This document shows, in pieces, positions 8,051 through 61,638 of a stretch of 64,000 nucleotides of DNA (within the stretch, counting starts at the first letter, position 1; every line of letters starts with the position of its first letter). Source of the DNA: Eledone cirrhosa (Eukaryota); the NCBI GenBank assembly GCA_964016885.1, contig OZ024740.1:275900001-275964000 (forward strand). Reading direction: 5' to 3'. A model generated the notes under the pieces. That model saw only the letters and a program-made list of their open reading frames with translations, ran no database searches and was not told the DNA's origin. The position numbers and the translations under genes are program-made.

Positions 8051-8390
8051 GAGAAAAAGATTAAACTAAATATTGCTAAATATCAATTTCTACCATAATC
8101 ACACCAATGTCACAGATATCAATAACATCAAAAACAACAATAACAACAAACATTTCTAATTAAGACACAAGGGAAGCAATTTGGGGGAAGGTAAAGTCGA
8201 TTGAATTGATCCCAGTACTTGACTGGCATTGTATTTAACCACCCCACATGGATAAAAAGTAAAGTTGAACTGAGTGAGATTTGAACTTAGAACATAAAAG
8301 CAAAAACCAGAAATACTTTTTTCAACACTAATGATTCTGCCAATCCCTTGCCTTTACAGCAACAACAACAACATCTTTATTATTATTTAT

Positions 8391-8441
<51 letters not shown>

Positions 8442-11334: not shown

Positions 11335-12781
11335 TGTATTCGTGATCCTCTGTCCTTGTGGATGAAATATAGGGATGAACTAACAAACGACTATTGCTGC
11401 TTCCAGAAATAGAGGTCGGCTTTAGTAATGAATTATACAACAGAGCTCTCATTGATATTGAGGACAAGTTAGTTCTGATTGCAGGAAAGGTTTTACGTGA
11501 CTACGGTTTACCAGAAACTCATCGCACGGACTCAAACAAACTTCCCACAGATATCAGACAGGAGACTTCTTATGACATCCATGATCTTGGCCTGTATGTC
11601 ACAGATAATGAGCCAAAACTTCTAGCTGATCAGCGACTGGCTTATACCTCCATTACTGGATCGCTATTTCAAAGAAGAGGTGGCATATTTTTCCTCGATT
11701 CTCCAGAGGAGGGGGGGGGGGGGGGGCAGGAAAAACTCTCGTTACTAAACTTCTTGCAACGGTTAGACAGAATAAGGACATAGCAATAGCAGTTGCGTCC
11801 TCTGGAATCGCAGCAACTTTGCTCCCTGGTGGAAGGACGGCACATTCAGTTTTTAAATTGCCCCTTGATTTGGCAAAATTGGAAACTCCTACTTGTCATA
11901 TCACCAAAGACTCCGAAATGGGTTATCTGCTGCGAAGGTGTCACCTTATTGTTTGGGATGAGTGCACAATGGCGCACAAAGGTGCTCTTGAGGCACTATA
12001 CAGGTCTTTGCAAGACATACGGGATTGCAGTGATGTTATGGGGGGGGGGGGGTCACCCTTCTGCTATCAGGAGACTTCAGACAGATTCTTCCTATAATAC
12101 CAAAAGGAACAAGAGCAGATGCGGTAAATGCATGTCTTAAGTCTTCACCATTGTGGCGACATGTGACATCATTAAGACTAACTACCAACATGCGTGCAAG
12201 GTTGCATGGGGACCTTCTGTCATCAACATTTTCTGGAGACATTCTTACAATAGGAGTTGGTAATCTACCTCCGGATACAGATGGACACATAGCAATTGAT
12301 CACATCTGCAATGTAGTTGAACTGTCGATGATCTCAAAGCGAGTGTATTGCCGAACTTGAATGATAACTATACGAGGAAACGCCAGTTATTTTGCTGAGA
12401 AATATCACTCCTCCAAAACTATGCAATGGTACACGCCTTGTGGTTAAAAAACTGTCTCCACTTAGTATTGACGCTACCATTCTATCTGGATGTGGAAAAG
12501 GCGAGGATGAGATAATTACAAAAATTAGCCTGACTATATCAGGCGTGGATACTCCCATCTCCTTTCGCCGAACCCAATTTCCCCTTCGTGTTGCCTTTGC
12601 GATGTCCATAAACAAGTCGCAAGGTCAAACTCTGTCCGTCGCTGGAATTCACTTGGATGAACCTTGCTTTTCGCACAGACAATTCTACGTTGCCTGCCCA
12701 CGAGTTGGCAGTCGAGATAATCTCTTTGTGTTTGTTCCGAAAAGAAAAACAAAGAATATCGTCTATCCTGAAGTGCTTTAG
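11335..12781 (+). pseudogene. Helitron PIF1-family helicase, frameshifted and deleted
   Basis: FFLDSP..G.GK (Walker A, broken in a G run), ASSGIAATLLPGGRTAHSVFKLP, LIVWDECTM, GDFRQILP, LRNITPPKLCNGTRL, QFPLRVAFAMSINKSQGQTL, FSHRQFYVACPRV, KTKNIVYPEVL*. Confidence 0.92.
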
Positions 12782-37459: not shown

Positions 37460-37693
37460 GTTTCTACTTTTGGCACAAGGCCATCATTACCCAGTGTATT
37501 ACTGCTACTTTATTTTATCGACCCCGTAAGGATGAAAGGCAAAGTTAATGATATTAGAGAAGAAGAGAGTGAAACAAAGTATTTCAACCCTAAACTTACT
37601 GATACTAATTCAAAGAAATACTCTATCAAGCTAAAATTAGCCAATATGTGAAAAACATGAACAACGCCAAAGAATATAGGATTATAATATATA

Positions 37694-37782
<89 letters not shown>

Positions 37783-37827
37783 ATATGTATATATATGTAT
37801 GTATATATGTATATATATATATATGAA

Positions 37828-38255
37828 TATAAGTATGTATACGTACATACATATATGCGTAGAGACGTACAGTAGTATGTATATATATATACATACATGC
37901 ACACATATATATATGTACGTGTGGGTTTACCGTCTGTACGCATATATCTATGTACGTATACATACTTATATTTAAGTATCAGCCGTACTAAGAGTCAGAA
38001 ATGAAATTTTGTTTCATTCTTTTCCATTTATCGTTTTCGGTACGCCCAGCCGACTAACTCACTCGATATGCAAATTAGGCTGCTCAGCCGTTAATATGTA
38101 TAATGAAATTATATACTTTCAAACGTTCAATCATCTGACAGAAAGGTATATGATGATGACGATAGCTAATAAGCTTGAAACTAGTACATCTTTCCTTTGT
38201 CAGTGTTGAACAAAAGGGCGACGATGGTTGCTAAACACTGTACGGCGTAATTCGG
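37828..38255 (+). mobile_element. Retrozyme-like family F monomer (circularly permuted) with hammerhead at 38152-38190
   Basis: The 3' segment runs directly into the 5' segment; GAUG-aUGACGA-uAGCU..AGCUu-GAAA-CUAG-UA^CAUC. Confidence 0.8.
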
Positions 38256-38359
38256 TTTCCTCATGTGCTTTTTCATAAATACACATGAAGGCGAACTAGC
38301 CAGTTTTAGAATTCCCTTTTTCGGACTATATTACTGTGAGAGCCCTGGTTTTCTGTTGA

Positions 38360-38441
38360 GCTCTGCTGATGAATGATATTCCAACCGTGACCATCTCCAC
38401 TGAAAGTTTTCATGAAATAGTCTTTTAAGACTATACAGAGC
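38360..38441 (+). ncRNA. Canonical type I hammerhead ribozyme (family K, copy 1)
   Basis: GCUCUG-CUGAUGA-AUGA...UCAU-GAAA-UAGUC uuuuaa GACUA-UA^CAGAGC; all three stems and the core are intact. Confidence 0.9.
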
Positions 38442-38988
38442 ATTTGATGTTATTCCAAATTGAAGGATAAGTGTTTCAAACTTTGTTTTATCATGAGTTA
38501 AAGGTCTATAGATTTTTCCATGGATTTTACTAAATTCTGTGGATGAATTTGTATCCTGATTCTCTTTTGAGATGAGTTTGAGTTATTTTTCCTAAATCTT
38601 TCGTTAACTACTTTTCCCATCTTGACGTTATAGTCGCATATATGTTATAGAATGCCGTTAGCTTCTTGCTAAAACAATCTCTATACGTCTCATTTATATT
38701 TATACTCGGATTCTTTTCCTAGAGTGCTTAAACTATCTGTGACTAATCCCGGTTTTTTTCATAAAAACTGTGATAATTATTGCTATTTTGCTGAACTCCT
38801 TGTAGAGTTTTTTTCAGAATGTATTTGACTGCTATTTCTTGTAAATAAACATTCACTTCCATCCTGACGTCACTAGCCCCATTTTTTCCTCATGTGCTTT
38901 TTCATAAATACACATGAAGGCGAACTAGCCAGTTTTAGAATTCCCTTTTTCGGACTATATTACTGTGAGAGCCCTGGTTTTCTGTTGA

Positions 38989-39070
38989 GCTCTGCTGATG
39001 AATGATATTCCAACCGTGACCATCTCCACTGAAAGTTTTCATGAAATAGTCTTTTAAGACTATACAGAGC
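38989..39070 (+). ncRNA. Canonical type I hammerhead ribozyme (family K, copy 2)
   Basis: Identical to 38360-38441. Confidence 0.9.
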
Positions 39071-39320
39071 ATTTGATGTTATTCCAAATTGAAGGATAAG
39101 TGTTTCAAACTTTGTTTTATCATGAGTTAAAGGTCTATAGATTTTTCCATGGATTTTACTAAATTCTGTGGATGAATTTGTATCCTGATTCTCTTTTGAG
39201 ATGAGTTTGAGTTATTTTTCCTAAATCTTTCGTTAACTACTTTTCCCATCTTGACGTTATAGTCGCATATATGTTATAGAATGCCGTTAGCTTCTTGCTA
39301 AAACAATCTCTATACGTCTC

Positions 39321-39369
<49 letters not shown>

Positions 39370-39551
39370 TATATATATATATATGTAATTATATATGTAT
39401 ATATATATATGTATATGTATATGTATATATGTATGTATATATGTATATATATATGTATATATGTATGTATAAATATGTATATGTATATATATATATGTAT
39501 ATGTATATATATATGTATATATATATGCATATATATGTATGTATAAATATG

Positions 39552-39598
<47 letters not shown>

Positions 39599-39601
39599 AT
39601 A

Positions 39602-39671
<70 letters not shown>

Positions 39672-39677
<6 letters not shown>

Positions 39678-40305
39678 ATGTATACGTACATACATATATG
39701 TATACAGATGTACAGTAGTATGTATATACATACATAGATGCACACATATATATGTACGTATGGTTTTACCGAACATTTATTATAATGTTCGGTTTGTTTG
39801 TAAACAAACACCCCGAATTAAGCCGTACAGTGTTCAGCAACAATCGTTGCCCTTTTGTTCAACACTGACAAAGGAACGATGAACTAGTTTCTAGCTTATT
39901 AGCTGTCATCAGCACTGTATACCTTCCTGTCAGTCGATTGAACGTTTGAAAGTATATACTTTCCTTATGCATAAGGAAAGTATATACTTTCAAACGTATA
40001 CGGTGCTGATGGCAGCTAATAAGCTAGAAACTAGTTCATCGTTTCTTTGTCAGTGTTGGACAAAAGGGCAACGATGGTTGCCGAACACTGTACGTCTTAA
40101 TTCGGGCTGTTTGTTTACAAACAAACTGAACATTATAATAAATGTTCGGTAAATCCATACGTACATATATATATAAGTGTGTGTGCATGTATGTATGTAT
40201 ATACATACTACTGTACGTCTGTATACCTATATGTATGTACGTATACATACTTATATTTAAGTATCAGCCGTACTAAGAGTGAGCAATGAAATTTCATTTT
40301 TTTCC

Positions 40306-40310
<5 letters not shown>
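39672..40310. mobile_element. Family F fold-back (~300-bp arms) with hammerheads at 39876-39918 (-) and 40000-40042 (+)
   Basis: Centre TTATGCATAA (39965-39974). Minus HHR: ACAGUG-CUGAUGA-cAGCU..AGCUa-GAAA-CUAG-UU^CAUCGU. Confidence 0.85.
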
Positions 40311-41729: not shown

Positions 41730-43855
41730 TATAGCGAGGATACTGGGTGTATGAATGTAACAAAACGAGACAATGTTTGTGTATATAATATTTAATTAAC
41801 GGTAGATAGAATACTTGACATGTCAAAGATAGATGTTAGAATGAAACAAAGTTAGTAGTTACCGTTTTGATTGCCAGGCAAACGCGGCTGGCAGAGGGCG
41901 CCTGGCTAAGGCCAGGCGCCTGTTGGCCAAATTAATGGCAGAGCCAAATGAGAAGACTCTTGACCTGGTGCCGAAAAGGCAAAAAGAGAGAGGAAGCTTA
42001 AAGTTGTTAGTTTTATAGGGCTCTGACCGGAAGTCGCAGAAAGGGTTCCACCTCCCGTCTAGATCCCAATCAAAACAAGGGAGACAACCGCTACATAACC
42101 TCCCGCCAGAATTTTAGTGTATAAAAATCGAAATGAAAATATGTAGCAAGTTGGCGAGAATGTTGTAACAGGCATGGAAAAATCAATGATAGATATCAAG
42201 GTAGCCAACCGCTCTTGGCCAGAGAACGACTGGACATCCATCTATCCATCACCCAAAGATACAATGTAATAAAGTAAAAGTAATAGAAGAGCTCAAAGTT
42301 CAAAATATAGTTCACAGGTGTGCAATCACATGACAGCAGGAAAGAAAGTGTGTTCCAGAGAATGAATGCAGGTGGTTTCTGTTCTGTGGTATATCGTGAA
42401 ATTTCCAACCTCCGAATGGATTTTCTCACAGGAAGAGTGCTGCAAAAATGAATTCTCTGGCTTTGGTGAAGCTGTATTGATGTATTGCTGTTGCTGCTGC
42501 TGTTGTCTCGCTGAGTGAGCGTATTCGGTGTTTAAATTCACAGTAAAAAAATTTTTTTTAGAAAAAAATGAGTTGCGCAAAGTGCTAGAAATAGCAGCCG
42601 AAGTTGATGGTCGATGTTGAGAATGCGTTGACCTGGAAGGGTCAAGAGGCCAGCGACCAGAGAAATAAGCATTCTTAATAAATGCGCGGTTATCAACTGT
42701 AAATTTACATTGTAAATCTATAAACCGGCAAATAGAAGAATATAGCTTAAGGCTGAAGAATCCTTGGGGGAGAAATGCTATCTCTGGCGTGCGGCTGTCT
42801 GTGAGTAGAGACATCTCAGTGAATCGAGAATTTATGCTGCCTACACGTGCCAATACAAGGTTGAAAAAAAATATTTCTAACGCGCGAGAAAATGATAGTG
42901 CAATTTTGAATGTGACAATGATGAAAAAGAAAGGCTTCAATCAGCATAATTATAGGTGTGAACTTTGGAAAAAAACAAAAAACTTGAACAATGAAGAAAA
43001 CGATGAACAAAAGGCAATGGTTCATCGAAAATAAATGTTCCTGTTGAAATGTTTTTTAAAGAATATCAAATTTCTTTTTTTTTTTTGTGTTTTGAAAGAG
43101 TTCGTTGTAAGAAACGAGAAACATATATATATATCGTGAAATGTTTTTTTTTGTTTTGAAAGTGTTCGTTGTAAGAAACGAGAAACATATATATATATCG
43201 TGAAATGTTTTTTTTTGTTTTGAAAGTGTTCGTTGTAAGAAACGAGAAACATCTATATATATATTGGTGAAATGCGACAGTTAATTGATGCGTGAGAGAA
43301 AAAGTATGTCTGTGCGAATTCCACATGTGCGTGTGTGCGTGTGCTTGAGTATTTTCATAGTTTGTCGCTAAATTTGCTGTGTATTCGTAATGTTACTCAC
43401 AAAACCAGATGTGCTATTTTTTTCTTTTTTTGGGGGTGACCACTTATAGCGATGAACGGCTGCGTGTTCGTATCACGTCAGGGTTACCAATATAGCGAAA
43501 TTACTGGTGTATGAATGTAACAAACCGAGACATGGTTTGTGTATATAATATTTAATTAACGGTAGATAGAATACTTGACATGTCAAAGATAGATGTTAGA
43601 ATGAAACAAAGTTAGTAGTTACCGTTTTGATTGCCAGGCAAACGCGGCTGGCAGAGGGCGCCTGGCTAAGGCCAGGCGCCTGTTGGCCAAATTAATGGCA
43701 GAGCCAAATGAGAAGACTCTTGACCTGGTGCCGAAAAGGCAAAAAGAGAGAGGAAGCTTAAAGTTGTTAGTTTTATAGGGCTCTGACCGGAAGTCGCAGA
43801 AAGGGTTCCACCTCCCGTCTAGATCCCAATCAAAACAAGGGAGACAACCGCTACA
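41730..43855 (-). mobile_element. Non-autonomous LTR retrotransposon (Gypsy-like, TRIM/LARD type)
   Basis: LTRs at 41730-42095 and 43491-43855 (TATAGCG...CGCTACA); 4-bp TSD GTAG; tRNA-Trp PBS TGGTAACCCTGACGTGAT next to the right LTR; PPT GGCGGGAGG at about 42099-42107 (minus); 1.4-kb internal region without pol motifs, with a 3x ~62-bp tandem at 43075-43270. Confidence 0.9.
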
Positions 43856-46974: not shown

Positions 46975-47306
46975 ACTTTACACCCACCGTCACCTTATAC
47001 CTGTCTACCTCATTCTCAAAGCCTAACTCCACTTTACACCCACAGTTACCTTATACCTGTCTACCTCAATCTCAAAGCCTAACTCCACTTTACACCCACA
47101 ATTACCTTATACCTGTCTACCTCATTCTCAAAGCCTAACTCCACACCCACAGTTACCTTATACCCGTCTACCTCATTCTCGAAGCCAAACTCCACTTTAC
47201 ACTCACAGTTACCTTATACCTGTCTACCTCATTCTCAAAGCCTAACTCCATTTTACACTCACAGTTACCTTATACCTGTCTACCCTGTCTACCTCATTCT
47301 CAAAGT
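46975..47306 (+). repeat. Minisatellite, about six 56-bp units
   Basis: Unit CTCCACTTTACACCCACAGTTACCTTATACCTGTCTACCTCATTCTCAAAGCCTAA. Confidence 0.92.
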
Positions 47307-60626: not shown

Positions 60627-61638
60627 TATATATATATTTTCACTACATATATATATATATATATATACATATATACATACATATATATGCACATATATTT
60701 TTTTGTATTGCACCATAGAGCATGTGTGTTTACGTGTGTCATTGTGTTTATATGTGGGTAGAGATGTGTGCTGATGTAGGTATGTATGTTGACGTGTGTA
60801 TGTTGTGGGTTCGTCTTAGGGAGAAGTGTTTAGACGGGGTCCGTATTTGTTAATGAAGTAAGATTCCTTGCTGATGCGCTGGGTGTGGGTGGCATTATCT
60901 TTAAATTTGTAGAGGGGAAAGATTCTGAAGTTGGGATGATTTTGGGCGGCGCAGGTATCAATGTGTTCACTCAGTGGTATTTTCCTGTATTCCCGTATTT
61001 TAATTTGGGATCTATGGACAGTCATGCGTTGGCGGAGGCTGTTTTGGGTCTGGCCTATGTATTGTTCTCGACAACCTGAACAAGTTAATACATATATTAA
61101 ATTTTCCGATGCACATGTGAAATTGTGTTTTACTATAAAACGTTGTCCATCTTTGAAATAGAATTCCGAACCCTCTATTAGGTTGATGCAAATGCCACAG
61201 TTGGGTCTATCGCATTTTTTTACTGTGGGTTTCGTTGTTGTAGTTGGCAGTACTTTGGCATGTGTTAAGATGTTTTTCATTGACTTGGATTGTCTTTTGC
61301 TCTTTATGATATCGTGTGTTCGTAGAATTTGGTTCATTCTATGGTCCTTTTTCAATACAGGGATGTTCTGGAGGATGGTGTCAAAGGCCTCGTTGTTGAG
61401 GGGGTTGTGTGTGGAGATGTATGGAAGAGCTTTTAGTTTTGGTTGATTTACTTTAGGGTGTCTAACACTCTATCTCAAAATTATTTTTGAAAAGCATTTA
61501 GAAATGCGCAACCGGTAAAAACTTAAAAACTTAAAACCACAACTGAATACTAACCCATACAATCACTAATACTCTTTTATTCCTAATTAAACCATTTTTC
61601 AACTGCGAACAATTTGTCAGCATTTTCTATTCCGTTTA

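What the first reader, a model, noticed from the sequence alone, without database searches (positions are those of the whole stretch)
38256..39326. 629-nt tandem with a textbook hammerhead (family K)
Seen: a 1.7-mer with apparently identical copies and a fully paired HHR (6-bp stem I, 4-bp stem II, 6-bp stem III, AUA site) repeated 629 nt apart. It is fused directly to a family F monomer upstream and ends in (TA)n. Inference: a very recent retrozyme-like insertion whose HHR should cleave as a monomer. The F-K fusion without a spacer suggests template jumping by a shared RT.
Basis: partly seen in the sequence, partly recalled or inferred. Interest (0 to 1): 0.75.

Follow-up and report, generated by a model that had tools for sequence, protein, structure and literature searches.

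The report
Hammerhead retrozyme array in (TA)n repeat
This is a very young 1.7-unit copy of a 629-base non-coding jumping repeat that carries a hammerhead self-cutting RNA motif and sits in a TA microsatellite; it was likely copied from a unit-length, probably circular, RNA by a Penelope-type enzyme, a kind of element already described in animals.

Summary
Window 38256-39326 is 1.7 head-to-tail units of 629 nt, identical over 441 nt. Each unit carries a type I hammerhead motif (stems 6/4/7 bp, AUA site, cut after 38435 and 39064). "Textbook" overstates it: pair 10.1-11.1 is A-U, stem II closes a 33-nt loop, a shifted pairing is predicted to be more stable, and no Rfam hammerhead model matches.

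The unit (family K) is dispersed and young: 2364 first-look candidates in the 3.0-Gb genome. Of 42 arrays whose 3' end lies inside the DNA I fetched, 38 end at the same unit position followed by (TA)n. Their 5' ends are truncated at many positions, mostly in (TA)n. Twenty-two rare variants are shared by all units of their array, which points to a unit-length template.

This matches animal non-LTR retrozymes, thought to be mobilised by Penelope-like elements. An abundant, intact Penelope-like family that also ends in (TA)n is in this genome, but it shares no 3' sequence with K.

The F-K "template jump" is not supported. The F piece is about 5% diverged and broken at an internal point, and the junction was found only here.

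Cleavage and circles remain untested. This scan already reported the same kind of element (310-, 466-, 615-nt families) elsewhere in this genome.

The parts
38256..39326 (+).
   Evidence: units identical over positions 1-441
38360..38441 (+). Hammerhead motif copy 1, type I: GCUCUG / CUGAUGA / AUGA-33 nt-UCAU / GAA / AUAGUCU-UUUA-AGACUAU / A / CAGAGC; predicted cut after 38435
38989..39070 (+). Hammerhead motif copy 2, identical to copy 1; predicted cut after 39064
38436..39064 (+). Predicted unit-length (629 nt) RNA released if both motifs cut. It folds better than shuffles, with stem I closing the molecule
   Evidence: -141.2 kcal/mol, z -4.55 against 20 shuffles; minus strand z -3.08
38692..38704 (+). 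Internal A/U-only stretch (unit positions 437-449, ATTTATATTTATA). It is the unit's best match to (TA)n and the point where arrays end
   Evidence: top score at 10, 12 and 14 nt
39313..39326 (+). Family-wide fixed 3' end of the array (...CGTCTCATTTATA) joined to (TA)n; inferred start point of reverse transcription
   Evidence: 38 of 42 assessable arrays end here
39327..39672 (.). Impure (TA)n tract at the 3' side: target microsatellite and/or tail
37931..38255 (+). Partial unit of family F (another abundant (TA)n-associated repeat), cut at an internal point by the K junction; 37975-38255 was the stretch tested
37828..37930 (-). Short inverted F arm whose outer end abuts the upstream (TA)n
   Evidence: read from the sequence
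37683..37856 (.). Upstream (TA)n-rich tract

Best explanation
Family K is a non-coding, hammerhead-bearing retroelement of the animal non-LTR retrozyme kind, and this locus is a very young 1.7-unit insertion of it into a (TA)n microsatellite, likely made by rolling (more-than-unit) reverse transcription of a unit-length, probably circular, RNA by a Penelope-like element's enzymes. Shown: the motif; the dispersed near-identical arrays; the common 3' end followed by (TA)n; the variable 5' truncation; the (TA)n flanks; and rare variants shared by all units of an array. Inferred: transcripts of an array would be cut by the two hammerheads into 629-nt monomers (38436-39064 here) and ligated into circles. 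A nick in (TA)n DNA would then prime cDNA synthesis at the RNA's one (UA)n-like stretch (unit positions 437-449), and the enzyme would run round the template 0.7 to more than 12 times. The 5' end would be joined to the target, often at TA microhomology. Here it was joined to an older F copy, probably with loss of target DNA. The helper enzyme is not identified. The abundant intact RT + GIY-YIG Penelope-like family that also ends in (TA)n is the candidate.
For: Motif and its rarity by chance. Structured unit RNA that keeps the three hammerhead stems in the minimum-energy fold. Dispersal and youth: 2364 first-look candidates, 161 matches at 97-100% from the 40 scored. Among the 45 arrays examined, 38 of the 42 with an assessable 3' end stop at unit position 444-449 followed by (TA)n. 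Their 5' ends fall at more than 30 different unit positions, and about 37 of 45 have TA repeats right at the 5' junction. This is the pattern of target-primed reverse transcription. Head-to-tail partial tandems, 5' truncation, inverted 5' arms and (TA)n bias are described for Penelope-like elements (PMC8557442, passages read). One of the 45 K arrays (L027) has an inverted arm. Unit-length template: 22 variants seen in at most 2 of the 45 arrays are present in every unit of their array that covers the site; these fall in 18 arrays. A further 148 are in one unit only and 48 in some units. The fixed end coincides with the unit's best (TA)n match, and the second-best match (position 20) is the recurrent 5' junction, seen in 5 arrays. 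Helper candidate: the window holds a GIY-YIG fragment. Its family has 21,056 first-look candidates at about 99% identity, with intact 784-aa RVT_1 + GIY-YIG frames. It ends ...CTCTATTCTTTTAAC(TA)n. Its 3' ends, or those of relatives, lie directly upstream of K in the same orientation in 3 of 45 arrays. Literature: animal retrozymes and the proposed circle-templated tandem cDNA (PMC7229834, Results part 1 and Discussion read); retrozymes as non-autonomous partners of Penelope-like elements, units 51-972 bp (bioRxiv 10.64898/2026.07.22.740005, abstract, Results part 1 and Discussion read).
Against: No Rfam hammerhead model matches, even at E<=10 on 111 nt. The G10.1-C11.1 pair, called highly conserved in PMC4209133 (passage read), is A-U here and U.U in a subfamily found in 38 of 145 units. 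The predicted share of the active secondary structure is about 1% for this subfamily. Copy-to-copy variation gives no sign of selection on the motif: the difference rate is 1.6% in the motif and 1.2% outside, with no compensatory double changes. Exceptions to one template per array exist: L014 and L066 have a rare variant in some units only, and 48 variants fall in the 'some units' class. K shows no similarity to the Penelope-like element's last 80 nt (score 12 against a shuffle mean of 15) or to its body, so the helper is not tied to K by sequence. The copy of that element I read (L088) has no CUGANGA core.
Confidence: 0.6

Rival explanations
1. K is retrotransposed from linear, uncut multimeric read-through transcripts of donor arrays that end in the flanking (UA)n. 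The hammerhead would be a weak or dead relic, and the fixed 3' end would simply be inherited from donor to progeny.
For: Weak, non-canonical stem II and a more stable inactive pairing in the currently amplifying subfamily. No Rfam match. A subfamily with U.U at 10.1-11.1 still spread to 7 or more arrays. Some arrays carry a rare variant in only part of their units.
Against: With 5' truncation alone, arrays could only shrink. A new variant in one donor unit could never reach all units, yet 22 rare variants are array-wide. L005 and L014 share 289C but differ unit by unit, so they are not position-wise copies of one donor. The hammerhead core is intact in nearly all units: 2 changes in the CUGAUGA columns across 142 units.
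Confidence: 0.2
2. One reading: the F-K junction records a template jump from K RNA to F RNA by one enzyme during a single insertion event.
For: F and K lie in the same orientation with no spacer. Both families abut (TA)n. Complex tandem and inverted insertions are typical of Penelope-like elements (PMC8557442, passage read).
Against: The F piece is 14 of 281 sites from the majority of 20 copies, and no genomic F copy exceeds 95% identity to it among the 40 scored of 3283 candidates. K is undiverged. The junction is unique among the 40 scored of 1310 candidates. Other K arrays also have non-(TA)n 5' flanks with no sign of chimeras.
Confidence: 0.1
3. A local satellite: the tandem arose by duplication or unequal crossing-over at this locus, and the hammerhead-like motif is a chance match.
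For: Older long arrays do show unit duplications after insertion. In L057, several sets of units (some adjacent, some apart in the array) share sets of variants.
Against: Dozens of dispersed arrays on many contigs share the same 3' end and have different 5' ends. The motif is expected about 0.04 times per 128 kb even at looser limits.
Confidence: 0.03
4. The UGAUGA ... CUGA stretch with a terminal stem is a C/D-box snoRNA-like gene carried by the repeat.
For: Four weak C/D snoRNA matches at 15-16.6 bits, E 1.1-1.6.
Against: All are far below the gathering scores of 41-60 bits. No CUGA box lies next to the 3' half of the terminal stem (sequence). The same bases fit a complete hammerhead.
Confidence: 0.02

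Closest known systems
Animal non-LTR retrozymes (coral, mussel, axolotl; Cervera and de la Pena 2020, PMC7229834; vertebrate survey, bioRxiv 10.64898/2026.07.22.740005)
   Same: Non-coding, AT-rich, head-to-tail repeats, each with a type I hammerhead. They are dispersed in thousands of copies, have no LTRs and co-occur with Penelope-like elements. The unit RNA is predicted to be well folded.
   Different: The unit is 629 nt, above the 150-450 bp of the 2020 paper but within the 51-972 bp of the 2026 preprint. Stem II has A-U at 10.1-11.1 and a 33-nt loop, with no recognisable loop 1-loop 2 contacts. Insertion is strictly into (TA)n, with one fixed 3' end that is not the cleavage site. In the parts I read, neither paper describes either of these last two features. 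Expression and circles are not shown here.
Penelope-like elements and their non-autonomous partners (Craig et al. 2021, PMC8557442; Cervera and de la Pena 2014, PMC4209133)
   Same: 5' truncation, partial head-to-tail tandems, an occasional inverted 5' arm, and microsatellite targets ((TA)n is reported for Naiads). Multicopy head-to-tail non-autonomous elements are reported for Chlamys.
   Different: K has no ORF and no sequence similarity to the 3' end of the one Penelope-like family tested. That family has a C-terminal GIY-YIG domain, so it is not a Naiad. Its hammerhead has a long stem III, unlike the minimal, dimer-dependent hammerheads typical of these elements.
Other retrozyme families of this same genome noted earlier in this scan (310-, 466/468- and 615-nt units)
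   Same: Same genome, same kind of arrays, and the same inference of circle-templated copying by Penelope-type enzymes into AT-repeat DNA.
   Different: K is unrelated in sequence: no look-alike was found by sequence look-up. It is mostly one-armed (1 of 45 arrays has an inverted arm), whereas those notes stress back-to-back arms.
Plant LTR retrozymes (Cervera et al. 2016, PMC4918200; search listing and abstract only)
   Same: Similar unit size (600-1000 nt circles), hammerhead-processed, non-autonomous.
   Different: Those have type III hammerheads inside LTRs, plus PBS and PPT, and are thought to be mobilised by Gypsy elements. K has a type I motif, no LTRs and target-primed style ends.

Membership tests
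Hammerhead ribozyme, type I | Conserved core: C3 U4 G5 A6 N7 G8 A9, G12 A13 A14, A15.1-U16.1, H17 | tested here: met
   CUGAUGA ... GAA A...U A at both copies. The core is almost invariant in 142-146 units.
Hammerhead ribozyme, type I | Three helices round the core, with helix I open and helices II and III closed | tested here: met
   6/4/7 bp. All three are kept in the minimum-energy fold of the 629-nt monomer.
Hammerhead ribozyme, type I | G10.1-C11.1 pair (called highly conserved in PMC4209133) | tested here: not met
   A-U here; U.U in 38 of 145 units.
Hammerhead ribozyme, type I | Covariation that keeps the helices | tested here: inconclusive
   Copies are 97-100% alike. The only common change in a helix region (q122 U/A) lengthens or shortens stem II, and there are no double compensatory changes.
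Hammerhead ribozyme, type I | Match to Rfam Hammerhead_1 (RF00163) or a related model | tested here: not met
   No match at gathering score or at E<=10. The model does find other compact 45-nt hammerheads in this genome at 34-38 bits.
Hammerhead ribozyme, type I | Site-specific self-cleavage | not testable with these tools
   Needs in vitro transcription.
Animal non-LTR retrozyme | Head-to-tail repeats, each unit with a hammerhead, dispersed in many copies | tested here: met
Animal non-LTR retrozyme | Non-coding and without LTRs | tested here: met
   No frame of 120 aa or more inside 38256-39236. Arrays have simple ends without LTRs. PBS and PPT were not searched for.
Animal non-LTR retrozyme | Expressed as linear and circular unit-length RNA | not testable with these tools
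Animal non-LTR retrozyme | Co-occurrence with Penelope-like elements | tested here: met
   RT + GIY-YIG family with intact 784-aa frames
Non-autonomous partner of a specific Penelope-like family | Sequence similarity to the autonomous element's end (pLTR or 3' end) | tested here: not met
   No similarity to the one family tested. Other families were not tested.
Penelope-style insertion | 5' truncation, partial tandems, microsatellite target, inverted 5' arm | tested here: met
   The inverted arm occurs in only 1 of 45 arrays (L027).

The most novel reading that the evidence does not exclude
The K arrays are a direct genomic record of rolling-circle reverse transcription. A 629-nt hammerhead circle homes to (TA)n microsatellites because nicked (TA)n DNA primes on the circle's single (UA)n-like stretch. 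Each insertion therefore starts at one fixed internal point, unrelated to the ribozyme cut site, and carries the haplotype of one RNA molecule in all its units. This would give testable rules for how Penelope-type enzymes choose and copy circular templates.
Probability: 0.4. Interest if true: 0.6.

Novelty: new member of a known kind. Interest (0 to 1): 0.4.

Why it matters
Retrozymes are thought to spread through circular RNAs copied into tandem DNA, but the papers I read state that step as a proposal, not a demonstration. Family K offers a clean natural data set to test it: many very young arrays, one fixed start point, microsatellite targets and array-wide private variants. It also shows that a hammerhead with an unusual stem II escapes the Rfam models, so such families are under-counted by standard annotation. 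For this genome it is one more family of a kind the scan has already reported several times.

Tried and rejected
Rfam gave no hammerhead at either threshold or on smaller stretches. This lowers the 'textbook' claim but does not remove the motif.

K has no relative elsewhere in the window and none among the notes of this scan by sequence.

I compared the variation rate in the motif with the rest of the unit. The test had no power at 1-2% divergence.

I first read the window's GIY-YIG frame as the N-terminus of a Naiad. Full copies show it is the C-terminus of an RT + GIY-YIG frame, so I dropped the Naiad label.

K's 3' end against the Penelope-like element's 3' end gave no similarity.

I looked for the rest of the broken F unit downstream of K in the same orientation. 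Only an inverted F copy follows, so a simple insertion of K into F without rearrangement is not shown either.

The C/D snoRNA reading was rejected.

My first DNA pattern with wide gaps and one literature term failed on syntax.

Full report
**What is there**

The first 300 nt of the two copies are 100% identical at a spacing of 629. BLAST of the unit against the locus gives 1-629 followed by 1-449, with one mismatch that lies in the TA tail. A per-unit variant table shows no difference at unit positions 1-441. The array is followed by an impure (TA)n tract of about 350 nt. It is preceded directly by sequence of another repeat, family F.

**The hammerhead**

I wrote a scanner for type I hammerheads. 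It requires CUGANGA, a closed stem II, GAAA, a closed stem III with the A15.1-U16.1 pair, a non-G at position 17, and an open stem I. It finds exactly two motifs in the 64-kb window on both strands, at 38360-38441 and 38989-39070. Stems are 6, 4 and 7 bp, and cleavage is predicted after 38435 and 39064. With much looser limits (4/3/3 bp), 100 block shuffles gave a mean of 0.04 motifs per window.

The motif is not textbook, for five reasons:
- The 10.1-11.1 pair is A-U, whereas PMC4209133 (passages read) calls G10.1-C11.1 highly conserved.
- Stem II is AUGA/UCAU closing a 33-nt loop.
- Because the sequence reads CUG-AUGA-AUGA, the UCAU strand can pair one register over with core bases A6-A9. 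That shifted pairing is the minimum-energy fold.
- The share of the active secondary structure in the predicted ensemble is about 1% for the window's variant. It is about 26% for an older variant with A at unit position 122, where stem II is 6 bp and the active fold is the minimum-energy fold. It is about 7.5% for a variant with U at 10.1.
- No Rfam hammerhead model matches at gathering score or at E<=10, on the window, on 1.3 kb or on 111 nt. The same Rfam model does find compact 45-nt hammerheads of another repeat in this genome at 34-38 bits.

On the positive side, the 629-nt monomer between the two predicted cuts folds at -141.2 kcal/mol (z -4.55 against 20 shuffles), and the three hammerhead helices are kept in that fold.

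**The family**

In the window's own genome (3.0 Gb, 1796 contigs), the unit has 2364 first-look candidates. The 40 that were scored gave 161 matches at 97-100% identity on many contigs. I examined 45 distinct arrays.
- 3' ends: three arrays are cut by the edge of the DNA I fetched. Of the other 42, 38 end at unit position 444-449, that is ...CGTCTCATTTATA followed by (TA)n. The four exceptions are L021, L027, L072 and L073.
- 5' ends: they fall at more than 30 different unit positions. Position 20/21 recurs in 5 arrays.
- 5' flanks: about 37 of 45 have TA repeats right at the 5' junction. About 8 do not, and the window's copy is one of these.
- Size: arrays run from 0.7 to 12.7 units.

This is the signature of target-primed reverse transcription from a fixed 3' start with 5' truncation, into (TA)n. 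The sense strand is the strand that carries the hammerhead. One array (L027) has an inverted arm at its 5' end.

**Template**

Variants seen in at most 2 of the 45 arrays were sorted by how many units of their array carry them. Twenty-two are present in every unit that covers the site (these fall in 18 arrays), 148 in a single unit, and 48 in some units.
- Single-unit variants are what later mutation or copying errors give.
- Array-wide rare variants cannot arise that way. They also cannot spread through 5'-truncated copying of a multimeric donor. They call for a unit-length template copied more than once round, either a circle or repeated jumps on identical monomers.
- Exceptions exist (L014, L066). 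The old 12.7-unit array L057 shows unit duplications after insertion.

The fixed 3' end is not the ribozyme cut site (unit position 180/181). It coincides with the unit's best match to (TA)n: positions 437-449, with 9 of 10, 10 of 12 and 11 of 14 bases matching. The second-best match, at position 20, is the recurrent 5' junction. I infer priming of (TA)n target DNA on that stretch. An alternative is that the stretch is simply an inherited remnant of a tail.

**Helper**

The window holds a GIY-YIG frame at 60816-61469 on the minus strand. Its family has 21,056 first-look candidates at about 99% identity. Full copies carry a 784-aa frame with RVT_1 followed by a C-terminal GIY-YIG domain, preceded by a 455-aa frame. 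At the 5' side there is an inverted copy of the 3' region and a 97-nt direct repeat of the 3' end. The 3' end reads ...CTCTATTCTTTTAAC(TA)n. This is a Penelope-like element, not a Naiad.

Its 3' ends, or those of relatives at 81-97% identity, lie directly upstream of K arrays, in the same orientation, in 3 of 45 arrays. But K shares no sequence with its last 80 nt or its body, and the copy I read has no CUGANGA core. It is therefore a candidate helper by activity, target and tail only.

**The F-K junction**

F has 3283 first-look candidates. In 19 of 19 other copies examined, F reads on past ...GTAATTCGG into GCTGTTTGTTTACAAAC... and cycles back to its own start. F is thus itself a repeat unit of roughly 450 nt, and it is cut here at an internal point.

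The window's F piece differs from the majority of 20 copies at 14 of 281 sites, and its best genomic match is 95%. K, in contrast, is undiverged. The 80-nt junction is unique among the 40 scored of 1310 candidates. I conclude that K arrived later beside an old F copy, probably with loss of target DNA. A one-event template jump is unlikely (about 0.1).

The rest of the F unit does not follow K in the same orientation. Only an inverted F copy does, so the history of the locus is not fully resolved.

**Comparison with what is known**

Animal non-LTR retrozymes are tandem repeats with type I hammerheads that are expressed as circles. They were proposed to be copied into tandem cDNA, with Penelope-like elements as the likely helpers (PMC7229834, Results part 1 and Discussion read). 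A 2026 preprint gives units of 51-972 bp and relates retrozymes to the terminal repeats of Penelope-like elements (10.64898/2026.07.22.740005, abstract, Results part 1 and Discussion read). (TA)n bias, 5' truncation, partial tandems and inverted arms are described for Naiad Penelope-like elements (PMC8557442, passages read).

K fits this kind and is a new family of it. Earlier notes of this scan report 310-, 466/468- and 615-nt retrozyme families in this same genome with the same reading. K is unrelated to them by sequence look-up.

**Limits**

Only 45 arrays of more than 2000 candidates were examined, and they were chosen from the best-scoring hits, which favours arrays with at least one full unit.

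Noticed in passing
window 60816-61469 (-); L088, L089: The C-terminal GIY-YIG part of a Penelope-like element. Its family has 21,056 first-look candidates at about 99% identity. Many copies have an intact 784-aa RT + GIY-YIG frame and an upstream 455-aa frame that overlaps it in another reading frame. The family has a (TA)n tail, an inverted 3'-region arm and a 97-nt direct repeat at the 5' side. The copy I read has no CUGANGA core.
   Followed up: partly
window 37828-38255 and 39674-40310: Family F forms back-to-back inverted arms. Their outer ends abut (TA)n at two fixed points (...ACATACTT and ...CCATTTAT). F copies carry a CUGAUGA-like core followed by a short hairpin and GAAA; the window's upstream copy has A in place of C3. 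F may be the 466/468-nt family of earlier notes, but I did not check this.
   Followed up: partly
L003 674-907, L008 298-665, L029 153-355: 5'-truncated 3' ends of the Penelope-like family (81-97% identity) lie directly upstream of K arrays, separated only by a short TA run and in the same orientation. This could be co-insertion or repeated use of the same microsatellite.
   Followed up: partly
L090-L095 (positions 1501-1545 of each): A different repeat family carries a compact 45-nt type I hammerhead (AUUGCC CUGAUGA GUCC-UAAAUA-GGAC GAAAC...) that scores 34-38 bits, above the Rfam cut-off. The first look gave about 415,000 rough candidates.
   Followed up: no
L057 (G000:C4:303598700-303607000): An old 12.7-unit K array in which several sets of units, some adjacent and some far apart in the array, share sets of variants. 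This indicates unit duplication or unequal crossing-over after insertion.
   Followed up: no
window 11630-12097 (+): A frame with a PIF1-like helicase match (E 4.5e-30), probably a Helitron-like remnant.
   Followed up: no
L013 5' flank; L088 (reverse complement) 8350-8420: Another repeat whose end (...GGGTGAAAGCAGCGATTCTTTGCTTAAACTTTAATCTGTTATTTTAA) abuts (TA)n. It suggests that several unrelated families in this genome use (TA)n.
   Followed up: no
window 43080-43262 and 46975-47284: Short tandem arrays of 64-nt (2.9 copies) and 56-nt (5.6 copies) units.
   Followed up: no
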